Below, piece by piece: positions 39,882-42,152 of a DNA stretch of 64,000 nt; the first letter of the stretch is position 1, and the number at the start of each line of letters is the position of its first letter. The stretch is from Pyrinomonadaceae bacterium. Lineage in GTDB: Bacteria; Acidobacteriota; Blastocatellia; Pyrinomonadales; Pyrinomonadaceae. Under the pieces are notes generated by a model. That model had not been told where the DNA came from, did no database searches, and was given only the letters and a program-made list of their open reading frames with translations. The stretch lies in the NCBI GenBank assembly GCA_049679665.1, contig JBAUGL010000066.1, positions 3,550-67,549 of the forward strand, in the 5' to 3' direction. Made by a program: the position numbers and the translations under genes.

Positions 39882-40229
39882 ATGGCGGGAGAATACGACG
39901 AGAAATTCGAGCAACTTACAACCGTGATTTCGAGAGTTGTCGGCCGGGTAGACGAACTACGTCTTGAAATGCGTGATATGAGCAGCGAACTGCGATCTAA
40001 TACGACGCAGTTAGGATCGGTTACGACGGCGCTAGGATCGGTTAAAACGGAGCTAAGATCGGTTAAATCGGAACTAGGATCGGTTACGACGCGTCTTGGA
40101 TCGCTTGAAAGTAAAGTCAACTTACTTTCGGCACAGTTCACCGATGTCGCCAGCATGGCGATCAAGGACCATCCGAGGATCGACAACCTTGAACAACGCG
40201 TCGGTGCTCTCGAATCAGAAACACATTGA
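39882..40229 (+). CDS. Small heptad-repeat coiled-coil protein of unknown function inserted between nuoD and nuoE
   Basis: 115-aa ORF 6 nt after the nuoD stop. Its stop overlaps the nuoE ATG (TGATG). Core is LRSNTTQ-LGSVTTA-LGSVKTE-LRSVKSE-LGSVTTR-LGSLESK. Confidence 0.6.
   Translation: MAGEYDEKFEQLTTVISRVVGRVDELRLEMRDMSSELRSNTTQLGSVTTALGSVKTELRSVKSELGSVTTRLGSLESKVNLLSAQFTDVASMAIKDHPRIDNLEQRVGALESETH
39990..40115 (+). repeat. Six tandem 21-bp units (consensus about CTAGGATCGGTTACGACGNNN) encoding heptads
   Basis: Read directly from the sequence. Units start at 39990, 40011, 40032, 40053, 40074 and 40095. Confidence 0.9.
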
Positions 40230-40759
40230 TGGCAACAGCAGCCCCCACAACTTTTACAGATCAGATCGAATACTCCGAAGAAGTAGCGGAGTTTTCGCCG
40301 GATATCATCGATGAAATGTACGGCCACCTCGCTAAGTACCCGCCAGAGCGGAGCCGTTCTGCTTTGATACCGCTCTTGACGCTGGTCCAGCGTGAACGTG
40401 GATGGATAGACAACCCGGGTGTGAATTTCCTCGCAAAATTCCTCGGACTGCATGTTACCGATGTTTGGGAAACGGCGACGTTCTATTCGATGTTCAATCT
40501 GCGCCCAGTGGGCCGCCACCACATCCAGATCTGCAAGACGCTCTCGTGCAAGATCATGGGCGAGCCCGAGATCACCGATCATATCTGTAAAAAGATCGGT
40601 ATTCACCCTGGCGAAACAACCGAGGACGGCAAGTTTACCGTCACGATGGTCGAATGCCTCGGAAGCTGCGGTACGGCGCCGATGATGCAGATCGGGTTTG
40701 ATTATCACGAGGACCTGACAACGAAGAAGGTAGATGAGATTTTGGATTCGTGTCAGTAG
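40229..40759 (+). CDS. nuoE: NADH-quinone oxidoreductase subunit E
   Basis: Thioredoxin-like 2Fe-2S motifs ICKTLSC ... ECLGSCGTAP and the YP...SALIPLL N-terminal region. Confidence 0.93.
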   Translation: MATAAPTTFTDQIEYSEEVAEFSPDIIDEMYGHLAKYPPERSRSALIPLLTLVQRERGWIDNPGVNFLAKFLGLHVTDVWETATFYSMFNLRPVGRHHIQICKTLSCKIMGEPEITDHICKKIGIHPGETTEDGKFTVTMVECLGSCGTAPMMQIGFDYHEDLTTKKVDEILDSCQ

Positions 40760-40814
40760 GTTGGATGTGTCAGTAGCTCGCACGTGTCAGTAGCCCGCAC
40801 GTGAGTAAGGGCTC
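40751..40814 (+). repeat. REP-like cluster: TGTCAGTAG x3 at 17-nt spacing, the third extending into a full unit GTGTCAGTAGCCCGCACGTGAGTAAGGGCTC
   Basis: Copies at 40751, 40768 and 40785. The first copy supplies the nuoE Cys-Gln-stop codons. Confidence 0.75.
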
Positions 40815-41370
40815 GACATATATCTCGTTCAACGTTATTTTGACTACTCGCGACTACATAGAGTTTCAGGATCGTTCGGTAGCAAAAGGGTATTTGATAA
40901 CATTCCGGTGCTACGGAACATGGCTGCACGGAGACGAACAAGGCTCCGTCGATCGACGATGGCACAACACGTATGGCACTACGATGATCAAGCCTGACGC
41001 CGAAAAAGTTAGTCGAAAGGCGAGCCAATTAAAGAGCGAGACTTTTCTGCTGCGCGGACGCGAGCGAAAAGTCGTTGAAGAAGCGATCAGAGAAGTCTGC
41101 GATGTTCGGGGATACGGATTATTCGCTGTGAACGTGAGGACCAATCACGCTCACTCGGTCGTTAGTAATTCCGATAAACCGGAACGATTGATGAATAGCT
41201 TTAAGGCGTATTCTACTAAGGCTCTAAGAACTGCCGGTTTACTCGCAGCCGACGCTCGGGCATGGAGCCGTCATGGAAGCACGAGATATCTCTGGACAGA
41301 CGACCACATTTCAGCGGCGGTTGACTATGTAGTCAACGGGCAGGGCGGTGACTTGCCGAAGTTTGAATAG
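40801..41370 (+). CDS. IS200-like / REP-associated tyrosine transposase (RAYT, HUH-Y1 family)
   Basis: YLITFRCYGTWLHGD N-terminal strand, HUH motif VRTNHAHSVV, catalytic-Tyr region WSRHGSTRYLWTDDHISAAVDYV. GTG start lies inside a REP unit, so the start is uncertain. Confidence 0.8.
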   Translation: MSKGSTYISFNVILTTRDYIEFQDRSVAKGYLITFRCYGTWLHGDEQGSVDRRWHNTYGTTMIKPDAEKVSRKASQLKSETFLLRGRERKVVEEAIREVCDVRGYGLFAVNVRTNHAHSVVSNSDKPERLMNSFKAYSTKALRTAGLLAADARAWSRHGSTRYLWTDDHISAAVDYVVNGQGGDLPKFE

Positions 41371-41375
41371 TAGTT

Positions 41376-41508
41376 GTGTCAGTAGCCCGCACAGTAAGTA
41401 GGGACTCAACGTAGAGCTAGATAACGTTGGCCACCACGCTCGACCACGTTACCTGATATTGACTTATGAATGAACTTGAGCCCTTACTTACGTGCGGGCT
41501 ACTGACAC
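41376..41508. repeat. REPIN-like inverted pair of the same REP unit
   Basis: Direct unit at 41376-41407 (GTGTCAGTAGCCCGCACAGTAAGTAGGGACTC). Inverted unit at 41478-41508 (reverse complement GTGTCAGTAGCCCGCACGTAAGTAAGGGCTC). Spacer is 70 nt. Confidence 0.75.
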
Positions 41509-41559
41509 GAGGATTTGACGACTGAAAAGGTGGATAAGATTTTGGAGGAATGTCAATGA
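41509..41559 (+). pseudogene. Orphan copy of the nuoE 3' terminus (encodes EDLTTEKVDKILEECQ-stop)
   Basis: Hand alignment to 40708-40758 gives about 36/51 nt and 12/16 aa identical. It ends in an ATGA overlap with the next ORF. Confidence 0.65.
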
Positions 41560-41915
41560 GGGAAGGAACTCAAACGATAGCAAATCAGCAACCCACAAAT
41601 GTCTTTGTCGCTTTCGAGATGCTTCTTGAGGAAATAGAGGCGGAGGTCGAAATCGTAAATCGAGCAGGTGGAAGGGCGTTCGAGCGAGGGAACTATGAAG
41701 ATACCCGCGCAATTCTCGAACGAGCTGGCGTGGTCACAAGTTTCCGGGATCGGACTGATGCGTTGCGTCGCGATTGGGATAGCTTCTTCGCTTCAGCCGA
41801 AGCCAAGGAAGATGTTGAGACGCTCGCTGAACGGCGAAATCTTGGACGCCTATCACGAGGATTGAGGACGCCTGAGCAGGCGTACAATCGACCAATTCTT
41901 GAGGTACTGAACTAG
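41550..41915 (+). CDS. Hypothetical protein, N-terminal fragment of a winged-helix protein; ends at an in-frame TAG
   Basis: ATG at 41550 or 41556. The C-terminus ...RTPEQAYNRPILEVLN looks like the opening helix of an Mrr_N-type winged helix that continues in the next ORF. Confidence 0.5.
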   Translation: MSMREGTQTIANQQPTNVFVAFEMLLEEIEAEVEIVNRAGGRAFERGNYEDTRAILERAGVVTSFRDRTDALRRDWDSFFASAEAKEDVETLAERRNLGRLSRGLRTPEQAYNRPILEVLN

Positions 41916-42152
41916 ATGGGCGGCAGGGGGCCAATGAGCGAGGTACTCGACAAAGTTCAAGTCAAGTTGGGTGGTGTGCTAAAAGACGTGGACTTCGAAC
42001 CGTTGGCATCCGACACCAATATTCTTCGTTGGCGAAATGCAGCCCAGTGGGCAAGGAATACGCTGGTTAAGGAAAGGCTGCTTAAGAATGATAGTCCACG
42101 AGGAACTTGGGAAATCACTGAAGCAGGTACTAAGGCCCTACGCGAAACATAA
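41916..42152 (+). CDS. Mrr_N-like winged-helix domain fragment, same frame as the preceding ORF
   Basis: GGRGPMSEVLDKV...LRWRNAAQWARNTLVKERLLKNDSPRGTWEITEAG matches the Mrr N-terminal wHTH pattern. Its stop overlaps the nuoF ATG (TAATG). Confidence 0.55.
   Translation: MGGRGPMSEVLDKVQVKLGGVLKDVDFEPLASDTNILRWRNAAQWARNTLVKERLLKNDSPRGTWEITEAGTKALRET

What the first reader, a model, noticed from the sequence alone, without database searches (positions are those of the whole stretch)
40751..41508. REP/REPIN-like repeat family flanking the HUH transposase
The unit GTGTCAGTAGCCCGCAC(G)T(G/A)AGTAAGGGCTC occurs upstream of the gene (40784-40814), directly downstream (41376-41407) and inverted (41478-41508). 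The last two form an imperfect inverted pair of about 30 bp with a 70-nt spacer, which is the REPIN doublet geometry. Upstream, the 9-mer TGTCAGTAG is triplicated at exactly 17-nt spacing (40751, 40768, 40785). Each unit has a short internal stem (AGCCC...GGGCT). RAYTs flanked by their cognate REPs are described mainly in Proteobacteria. A clean example in this lineage would be worth documenting.
Basis: partly seen in the sequence, partly recalled or inferred. Interest (0 to 1): 0.6.

Follow-up and report, generated by a model that had tools for sequence, protein, structure and literature searches.

The report
Hairpin repeats with their HUH nuclease
A soil acidobacterium carries one gene for a small DNA-cutting enzyme, bracketed by its own 31-base hairpin repeat inside the complex I operon; this type of system is already described, but about half of the scattered repeat sites here lie in frame inside ordinary protein genes.

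Summary
The 31-nt unit GTGTCAGTAGCCCGCACGTAAGTAAGGGCTC sits at 40784-40814 (+), 41376-41407 (+, degenerate) and 41478-41508 (-). Two 17-nt head copies lie at 40750 and 40767.

The REP/RAYT reading holds in outline:
- The HUH gene (most likely 40840-41370, 176 aa) is single-copy.
- The repeat has 21 copies at 14 loci in this 3.4-Mb Pyrinomonadaceae MAG and occurs in 49 of 61 genomes of the genus.
- About 20 homologous genes elsewhere show the same REP(+)-gene-REP(-) layout.
- More distant paralogues carry variant hairpins with compensatory stem changes.

Three corrections:
- The protein is not a canonical RAYT or IS200 TnpA; its motifs fit the "class 3" Y1 HUH group, already reported from Acidobacteria.
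- The repeats are not extragenic. Seven of 13 dispersed loci lie in frame inside conserved genes, read as VSSPHVSKGS.
- The cassette sits at the nuoE-nuoF junction, supplies the nuoE stop codon and is followed by a second copy of the nuoE 3' end.

New detail: flank duplications of 24-76 nt border 5 of 16 such cassettes.

Verdict: a new member of a known kind, of moderate interest. The scan has noted a similar unit in another genome.

The parts
40226..40759 (+). nuoE (NADH dehydrogenase subunit E). Its last two codons and its TAG stop (TGT CAG TAG, 40751-40759) are the head of the first, degenerate repeat.
   Evidence: Pfam 2Fe-2S_thioredx, E = 4.9e-52. In relatives without the cassette the nuoE stop abuts the nuoF ATG.
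40709..40759 (+). Left copy of the duplicated nuoE 3' end (16 codons plus stop). This is the copy that is translated.
   Evidence: the repeat finder family D2: 50 nt, 76% identical to 41506-41555.
40750..40783 (+). Two tandem 17-nt head copies of the repeat (40750-40766 degenerate; 40767-40783 with 1 mismatch).
   Evidence: Family D1, spacing 17 and 17 nt. Similar head arrays border the cassette in L071 and G044.
40784..40814 (+). Full 31-nt REP unit, left arm of the cassette.
   Evidence: Exact match; nhmmer 40.9 bits. Inverted repeat I1 with 41478-41509 is 97% complementary.
40840..41370 (+). Gene for the Y1 HUH endonuclease (176 aa from TTG 40840; the ORF is open from GTG 40801). Motifs: NHAH (HUH), WSRHGST, YVVNGQ.
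   Evidence: Pfam Y1_Tnp 27.2 bits against a cut-off of 23. Motifs conserved in alignment A1. AlphaFold model pLDDT 78.7; the top 30 PDB fold matches are all Y1 HUH transposases or the E. coli RAYT.
41376..41407 (+). Degenerate REP unit (+), inner arm of the downstream doublet.
   Evidence: 23.9 bits.
41478..41508 (-). Full REP unit (-). It is the right arm of the cassette and the outer arm of the doublet 41376-41508.
   Evidence: 45.1 bits. The doublet folds at -35 kcal/mol, z = -7.5.
41509..41559 (+). Right copy ('X') of the nuoE 3' end: 16 codons and a stop, still an open frame but not joined to nuoE. It carries GGAGG (41545-41549) and the ATG (41550) of the next ORF.
   Evidence: D2; identity matrix. 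An independent Logan contig starts inside the REP(-) at 41480 and runs into X.

Best explanation
The stretch is a REPtron. It consists of one gene for a 176-aa Y1 HUH single-strand DNA endonuclease of the 'class 3' type, bracketed by inverted copies of its cognate 31-nt hairpin repeat. The repeat has a GTGTCAGTAG head, a 4-5 bp outer stem and a 2-bp inner stem separated by a 2x2 internal loop, and a GTAA loop. The cassette lies at the nuoE-nuoF junction of the complex I operon.

Inferred by analogy with IS608 TnpA and E. coli TnpA-REP: the enzyme binds the folded hairpin on single-stranded DNA, reads the conserved head, and cuts and rejoins beside it. In this way it maintains and occasionally copies REP singlets and inverted doublets in trans.

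Shown here: the gene is single-copy while the repeat is dispersed; the repeat type co-varies with the enzyme clade; and about half of the dispersed loci are in-frame insertions in surface loops of conserved proteins. The one stop-free sense frame of the repeat reads VSSPHVSKGS.

The cassette itself moves rarely. When it reaches a new site it arrives with, or creates, a 24-76 nt direct duplication of the flank. At nuoE this keeps a complete gene end on the left and the ribosome-binding region for the next gene on the right.
For: - Single copy of the gene: tblastn against the genome.
- Dispersed repeat: 21 copies at 14 loci. The same 31-mer (up to 3 mismatches) is in 49 of 61 genus genomes, with no hits to the reversed control.
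- Conserved layout: REP(+)-gene-REP(-) in about 20 loci whose enzyme is at least 57% identical. Paralogues at 56% or less have variant hairpins.
- Enzyme clade: the enzymes with type-A repeats form one clade (support 97/94).
- Hairpin covariation: 54 of 54 cells paired, 4 of 6 pairs changed on both sides, 0 of 500 shuffles as good.
- Fold and motifs: Y1 HUH fold; conserved H103-x-H105 and Y163-4-Q168.
- Class 3 description matches: NHVH, Y----Q, 178 aa, Acidobacteria, REP-like hairpins (PMC6006769).
- Intragenic copies: in-frame translations; host genes confirmed by Pfam on both sides of the insert.
- Empty versus filled sites: saccharopine-dehydrogenase-like gene, exactly +30 nt in G000, G044 and G019; HPPD; gltX.
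- Other genomes: 20 of 40 sampled loci lie in long open frames.
- Same nuoE-nuoF position in G044, L071 and L075.
Against: - No biochemistry: binding, cleavage site and strand are all inferred.
- Copy number is low (about 20), far below the hundreds typical of REPINs.
- Most copies in this genome are singlets, not doublets.
- The single hairpin is weak (-4.9 kcal/mol).
- The protein fails the curated RAYT model.
- The cassette occupies 13 different genomic contexts among 24 loci, so it behaves partly like an insertion sequence.
- The genome holds six other Y1_Tnp genes. Each that I inspected has different flanks or none, but action in trans by another enzyme is not excluded.
Confidence: 0.8

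Rival explanations
1. It is an autonomous IS200/IS605-like insertion sequence. The gene plus its terminal hairpins moves as one unit, and the dispersed 31-nt units are its MITE-like derivatives or solo ends.
For: The cassette is found in 13 distinct genomic contexts among 24 loci. Flank duplications border 5 of 16 cassettes. Some MAGs hold two diverged cassettes with the same repeat type. Quentin et al. state that class 3 resembles both insertion sequences and REPtrons. The top fold matches are ISDra2, IS200 and IS608 TnpA.
Against: There is one copy in this genome. No tnpB partner is present. The ends are inverted copies of one hairpin rather than distinct left and right ends on one strand. 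The same nuoE-nuoF site is occupied in four genomes, with enzymes 68-76% identical to this window's, which points to long residence. The IS200 model scores 22 bits against a cut-off of 55.
Confidence: 0.13
2. The repeats are host elements unrelated to the HUH gene. They could be a transcription, mRNA-stability or protein-linker module (VSSPHVSKGS) that is kept for its own function, with the gene merely sitting among them.
For: The 31-mer is almost invariant across species whose proteins are only about 80% identical. At the orthologous HPPD site the repeat core is better kept than the neighbouring insert sequence.
Against: Repeat type tracks enzyme clade, with compensatory stem changes. The repeats sit in unrelated proteins at variable loops that also collect other repeat types. 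Many genus members lack the insert at each site.
Confidence: 0.04
3. The second copy of the nuoE end, and therefore the cassette-inside-the-gene picture, is a metagenome assembly artefact that joins two strains.
For: The genome is a MAG of 162 contigs. The two copies differ largely by synonymous changes, as alleles of two strains would. An independent Logan contig breaks exactly at the REP(-) end.
Against: A second Logan contig from the same run begins inside the REP(-) at 41480 and runs straight into the second copy, so that junction exists in the reads. The two sides share only an 8-nt word, too short to mislead an assembler. Four other MAGs from other studies show the same kind of duplication.
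Confidence: 0.03

Closest known systems
Class 3 TnpA-Y1 (HuH-Y1) proteins with flanking REP-like hairpins (Quentin et al. 2018, BMC Genomics, PMC6006769)
   Same: Length (176 vs about 178 aa), HUH motif NH[AV]H, Y----Q tyrosine motif (YVVNGQ vs YV[VI][AENY]EQ), occurrence in Acidobacteria, weak atypical hairpins flanking the gene, and dispersed copies of those hairpins. Sister repeat types here carry the published CnGA foot (CAGA).
   Different: This repeat type has CAGT followed by AG, so it also reads GTAG. The W motif is WS rather than W[TA]. Copy number is about 20, against about 600 reported for Solibacter. The in-frame intragenic habit, the nuoE site and the flank duplications are not described in that paper. 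Their class 3 profile could not be run here.
RAYT / TnpA-REP with REP and REPIN sequences (Nunvar 2010; Bertels and Rainey 2011; Ton-Hoang 2012; Messing 2012, PDB 4ER8)
   Same: A single-copy Y1 HUH gene bracketed by inverted hairpin repeats that are dispersed in the genome. Inverted doublets occur. A conserved head lies 5' of the stem. Enzyme and repeat co-evolve. Inheritance at one site is vertical over long periods.
   Different: The curated RAYT model is not met (22 vs 80 bits), and the tyrosine motif is YVVNGQ rather than YIxxNP. There are tens of copies rather than hundreds. Half of the loci are intragenic. The stem is much shorter.
Intragenic GTAG/CGTC REPs and Rickettsia palindromic elements (Di Nocera et al. 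2013, PMC3733652; Ogata et al. 2000)
   Same: Short palindromic repeats inserted in frame into conserved genes, adding 10-30 residues in loops. tRNA synthetases are among the host genes.
   Different: In those reports most REPs remain intergenic. Here about half of the loci are intragenic, in this genome and in 12 others. The cognate enzyme is identifiable, whereas RPEs and CGTC repeats have none.
IS200/IS605 family TnpA (IS608, ISDra2)
   Same: Same fold (the best PDB matches) and the same presumed chemistry on hairpins in single-stranded DNA.
   Different: Single copy, no tnpB, inverted identical ends, and the curated IS200 model is not met. IS200/IS605 insertion makes no target duplication, whereas long flank duplications are seen here.

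Membership tests
REPtron (Y1 HUH gene plus cognate REPs) | The gene is bracketed by inverted copies of a hairpin repeat. | tested here: met
   Inverted repeat I1 is 97% complementary. The same layout occurs in about 20 homologous loci.
REPtron (Y1 HUH gene plus cognate REPs) | The gene is single- or low-copy while the repeat is dispersed in the genome. | tested here: met
   One tblastn hit; 21 repeat copies at 14 loci.
REPtron (Y1 HUH gene plus cognate REPs) | Repeat type co-varies with the enzyme lineage. | tested here: met
   Variant hairpins flank the paralogues. The clade with type-A repeats has 97/94 support. Four of 6 stem pairs show compensatory changes.
REPtron (Y1 HUH gene plus cognate REPs) | An unpaired GT[AG]G tetranucleotide lies at the 5' foot of the hairpin. 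| tested here: inconclusive
   GTAG is present directly 5' of the CCC stem, but its last one or two bases pair in the predicted fold. Sister types have CAGAA instead.
REPtron (Y1 HUH gene plus cognate REPs) | The repeats are extragenic. | tested here: not met
   Seven of 13 dispersed loci lie in frame inside Pfam-confirmed genes. Twenty of 40 sampled loci in other genomes lie in long open frames.
REPtron (Y1 HUH gene plus cognate REPs) | The enzyme binds and cleaves its REP on single-stranded DNA. | not testable with these tools
   Needs biochemistry.
Canonical RAYT (NCBIfam NF047646; class 2 TnpA-REP) | Score above the curated model cut-off, and a YIxxNP tyrosine motif. | tested here: not met
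   22.1 bits against a cut-off of 80. The motif is YVVNGQ.
IS200/IS605 TnpA (NCBIfam NF033573) | Score above the curated model cut-off. | tested here: not met
   22.0 bits against a cut-off of 55.
IS200/IS605 TnpA (NCBIfam NF033573) | Multiple near-identical element copies, with distinct left and right ends on one strand. | tested here: not met
   Single copy; inverted identical ends.
Y1 HUH superfamily (Pfam PF01797) | Pfam gathering score, HUH and Tyr motifs, and the fold. | tested here: met
   27.2 bits against a cut-off of 23. H103-x-H105 and Y163 are invariant. The top 30 PDB fold hits are all Y1 HUH enzymes, TM-score 0.5-0.67.
Class 3 TnpA-Y1 (Quentin et al. 2018) | NHVH motif, Y----Q motif, about 178 aa, extended conserved N-terminal region. 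| tested here: met
   NHAH here and NHVH in most homologues; YVVNGQ; 176 aa; conserved N-terminal RDYIEFQ...ITFRCYGTWLHGD, compared with the paper's Table 1.
Class 3 TnpA-Y1 (Quentin et al. 2018) | Flanking atypical hairpins with a 5' foot CnGA. | tested here: inconclusive
   This type has CAGT. Repeat types C, D and E around paralogues have CAGA.
Class 3 TnpA-Y1 (Quentin et al. 2018) | Match to the authors' class 3 profile. | not testable with these tools
   The profile is not available, and the supplements held as text do not list it.

The most novel reading that the evidence does not exclude
The class 3 cassette spreads between related acidobacterial genomes as a unit that carries a donor copy of the neighbouring gene end. 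Integration would be by homology-facilitated illegitimate recombination, or by an att-like site-specific step catalysed by the HUH enzyme at sequences resembling the repeat head. This would leave 24-76 nt direct duplications whose two copies differ mainly by synonymous changes. It would also explain how the element can sit inside tightly coupled operon junctions such as nuoE-nuoF without breaking them. The same enzyme would keep its repeats nearly invariant inside coding loops across species.
Probability: 0.3. Interest if true: 0.65.

Novelty: new member of a known kind. Interest (0 to 1): 0.48.

Why it matters
Class 3 Y1 HUH proteins are the least studied branch between IS200 transposases and RAYTs, and no member has been tested biochemically. 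This lineage offers a compact, well-defined pair for such a test: a 176-aa enzyme and a 31-nt substrate, with natural variant pairs that show compensatory changes.

It also gives a clear case of a mobile hairpin that lives largely inside coding sequence, including glutamyl-tRNA synthetase. That bears on how proteins acquire loop insertions, and on why gene callers and protein alignments in Acidobacteriota show recurrent 10-25 residue inserts.

The long flank duplications with synonymous-only differences give a testable clue to how these cassettes reach new genomes.

Tried and rejected
- Sequence search of the PDB with the family profile found no HUH entry; only the fold search did.
- Rfam found nothing in 40600-41700.
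- The promoter and terminator scan gave no more than chance.
- I looked for a conserved target motif beside the dispersed copies and found none in the 8-nt flanks. The empty/filled comparison leaves the insert boundary ambiguous by 2-4 nt, because the target already holds GT or GTGT.
- The identity matrix of nuoE ends and the enzyme tree could not decide between one ancient insertion and repeated insertions at nuoE. The four nuoE-linked enzymes fall in an unresolved polytomy.
- Sliding identity along nuoE is only suggestive. G044 ranks low over the 5' part (72%) but joint top over the last 51 nt (80%).
- The REP copy near the Y1_Tnp gene on contig C155 is not that gene's flank; that gene has its own GTAGGGT hairpins.
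- The supplements of PMC6006769 held as text carry no class 3 list.
Two independent Logan contigs were used instead.

Full report
**1. Observation**

- A full 31-nt unit at 40784-40814 (+).
- Its near-perfect inverse at 41478-41508 (97% complementary over 32 nt).
- A third, degenerate copy at 41376-41407 (+).
- Two extra 17-nt head copies at 40750 and 40767. These place TGTCAGTAG at 40751, 40768 and 40785 with exact 17-nt spacing.

A mismatch search finds the two full copies and expects none by chance. As single-stranded DNA, the pair 41376/41478 folds into one long hairpin (-35 kcal/mol, z = -7.5). A single unit folds only weakly (-4.9 kcal/mol, z = -2.1) as AGCCC/GGGCT, a 2x2 internal loop, AC/GT and a GTAA loop.

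**2. The gene**

The ORF 40801-41370 matches Pfam Y1_Tnp just above its cut-off (27.2 vs 23 bits). It scores about 22 bits against both the NCBIfam RAYT model (cut-off 80) and the IS200 model (cut-off 55).

A search of the large protein collection finds 1640 relatives. They are almost all 175-176 aa, and JGI often names them RayT. The orthologue in G044 starts with ATG at the codon aligned with TTG 40840. The real product is therefore most likely 176 aa (40840-41370), not 189 aa.

The alignment shows invariant H103-x-H105, WSRHGST and Y163-VVNG-Q168. A profile search of PDB sequences finds nothing. The AlphaFold model (pLDDT 78.7) matches only Y1 HUH enzymes in its top 30 fold hits: ISDra2, IS200, IS608 and the Sulfolobus TnpA, with the E. 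coli RAYT 4ER8 at rank 15.

The motifs, the length and the conserved N-terminal extension fit the class 3 TnpA-Y1 group of Quentin et al. 2018. That group is defined by NHVH, Y----Q and about 178 aa. It occurs in Planctomycetes and Acidobacteria and is flanked by weak hairpins that can be numerous in the genome (PMC6006769).

**3. Lineage and copy numbers**

The window lies on contig C66 of a 3.40-Mb, 162-contig genome. Related records are Pyrinomonadaceae/Blastocatellia MAGs of the Acidobacteriota.

The HUH gene is single-copy in this genome. A profile of the repeat finds 21 copies at 14 loci, with sharp 31-nt boundaries. The same 31-mer, allowing 3 mismatches, occurs in 49 of 61 genomes of the genus at 1-44 copies each. 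The reversed control pattern gives no hits.

**4. Is the repeat cognate to this gene?**

In about 20 loci from other genomes the enzyme is 57-82% identical. There the same repeat sits 20-60 nt upstream (+) and 20-30 nt downstream (-) of the gene. Paralogues at 56% identity or less are flanked by different hairpins. These keep the architecture but change the stem:
- GCCC/GGGC becomes ACCC/GGGT or ACGC/GCGT.
- The inner pair AC/GT becomes CC/GG or CT/AG.
- The head changes from GTCAGTAG to GCAGAAA.

On a hand-registered alignment of nine variants, all 54 cells pair. Four of 6 pairs change on both sides, no shuffle of 500 does as well, and slid controls collapse. The sample is small and I chose the register myself.

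The enzymes with type-A repeats form one supported clade (97/94). The genome has six other Y1_Tnp genes. The one near a repeat copy, on C155, has its own different hairpins.

**5. The repeats are not extragenic**

Translating the long ORFs around the dispersed copies shows that 7 of 13 non-cassette loci lie inside genes, in frame. The host genes are:
- glutamyl-tRNA synthetase
- 4-hydroxyphenylpyruvate dioxygenase (HPPD)
- a saccharopine-dehydrogenase-like protein
- an APH-family kinase
- a DUF1697 protein
- an S58 peptidase
- a xanthine-dehydrogenase-type Fe-S/FAD subunit (four units, including an inverted doublet)

Pfam domains flank the inserts on both sides.

In the sense orientation only one frame of the unit lacks a stop. 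It reads VSSPHVSKGS. The reverse orientation reads ALTYVRATDT or EPLLTCGLLT.

Orthologue alignments show empty and filled sites:
- In the dehydrogenase-like gene, most genus members read FGE-V(T/K)KTG. G000, G044 and G019 carry the unit; G000 and G044 are exactly 30 nt longer than the 36-nt empty allele.
- HPPD and gltX show inserts of variable length at one loop. Some have decayed, and outgroups lack them.

I sampled 40 loci with this repeat from 12 other genomes (every listed match from ten of them, plus most from G006 and G007). In 20 of these loci the unit lies in a frame open for at least 60 codons on both sides. This criterion is by open frame only, not by homology.

The APH loop holds four different repeat types in different species. 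Permissive loops therefore collect these elements. In-frame intragenic GTAG REPs and Rickettsia RPEs are already described (PMC3733652). The unusual point here is the proportion.

**6. Position in the nuo operon**

In several relatives the nuoE stop abuts or nearly abuts the nuoF ATG. In G000 the cassette lies between them. The nuoE reading frame ends in the first repeat head (TGT CAG TAG).

The cassette occupies the same junction in G044, L071 and L075. G013 and G011 have repeat doublets there without the gene, and G017 has a single unit.

Directly after the right-hand unit lies a second copy of the last 16 codons and stop of nuoE (41509-41559, 76% identical to 40709-40759). It still reads as a NuoE C-terminus and carries the GGAGG and ATG of the next ORF. 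L071 has the same arrangement.

**7. Flank duplications are a property of the cassette**

I compared the left flank with the right flank in 16 cassettes. Five show significant direct duplications:

| Locus | Length | Identity | Duplicated sequence |
|---|---|---|---|
| G000 | 51 nt | 76% | nuoE 3' end |
| L071 | at least 38 nt | 87% | nuoE 3' end |
| L074 | 33 nt | about 82% | 5' end of coaBC |
| L076 | 76 nt | 94% | 3' end of a RidA-like gene, again ending in a repeat-borne stop |
| L089 | 24 nt | 100% | gene end plus ribosome-binding site |

In L076 all five differences are synonymous third-position changes. In G000, six codon differences are synonymous and both stops are kept.

The right junctions show microhomology between the repeat end and the target: ..GACAC against ..ATCAC in G000, ..GACAC against ..ACCAC in L071, and ..CGGACAC against ..CGGACAA in L076.

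This pattern fits import of the cassette together with a donor copy of the gene end, anchored by homology on one side and microhomology on the other. A long staggered-cut target duplication is the alternative. Neither is shown.

The cassettes occupy 13 genomic contexts among 24 loci, so they do move on evolutionary time scales.

An assembly artefact is unlikely. Two independent Logan contigs of run SRR28022739 reproduce nuoE through the REP(-) up to 41507, and the REP(-) from 41480 into the second copy and on to nuoF.

**8. Verdict**

The element is best filed as a class 3 Y1 HUH REPtron. That kind is already known from Acidobacteria, so this is a new member rather than a new kind.

Three features add value:
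- a clean enzyme-hairpin pair with natural compensatory variants;
- the high share of in-frame intragenic copies across a whole genus;
- the recurrent long flank duplications, which hint at how the cassette enters new sites.

Another note describes a similar unit in a different genome.

Noticed in passing
G000:C36:392-3193 (outside the window): A 933-aa open frame in which a class-2 RAYT-like domain (GWHERGYLPHFD ... VIMPNHVHLL ... YIERNPVKAGL) sits in frame inside an acetyl-CoA-synthetase-like protein. It could be a whole HUH gene inserted in frame or a read-through artefact.
   Followed up: no
G000 contigs C155:6844-7287, C84:1887-2264, C32:25567-25950, C44:807-1442, C21:16501-17052: Further Y1_Tnp-family genes in the same genome. 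The C155 protein has the subclass 1.2-like motif YIEGQKQHH and its own GTAGGGT...ACCCTAC hairpins. C84 and C32 are fragments of that type. C44 and C21 look like class-2 RAYTs (YIxxNP).
   Followed up: partly
L117 (G044:C37), 970-1245 nt downstream of the nuoE stop: An array of six inverted REP units at a strict 37-nt period downstream of the orthologous cassette. A copy of the nuoE end plus repeat heads lies between the HUH gene and that array.
   Followed up: partly
G000:C5:6016-6039, C80:3224-3248, C152:644-668; also L172 and L173: A second repeat subfamily with head CAGAAG (CAGAAGCCCGCACGAAGTAAGGG), read as QKPARSKG in DUF1697, in the S58 peptidase and in the APH kinase of other species.
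   Followed up: partly
window 40760-42151 and loci L096-L124: The nuoE-nuoF junction is a hot spot in this genus. Besides the cassette, different species carry small unrelated genes there, for example a HicB-like ORF starting MxYKVxL..EGYSVSCP and a SnoaL-like ORF. Gaps range from 0 to more than 1100 nt.
   Followed up: partly
window 41550-42152: Two contiguous ORFs (121 aa, no family; 78 aa, Mrr_N) lie in one frame and are separated by a single TAG. They fall between the second nuoE-end copy and nuoF.
   Followed up: no
G000:C5:4601-4665 and C14:39900-39974: Dispersed repeat copies in G000 lie after a RidA-like gene and before coaBC. These are the same two gene neighbourhoods that host whole cassettes in L076 and L074.
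   Followed up: no
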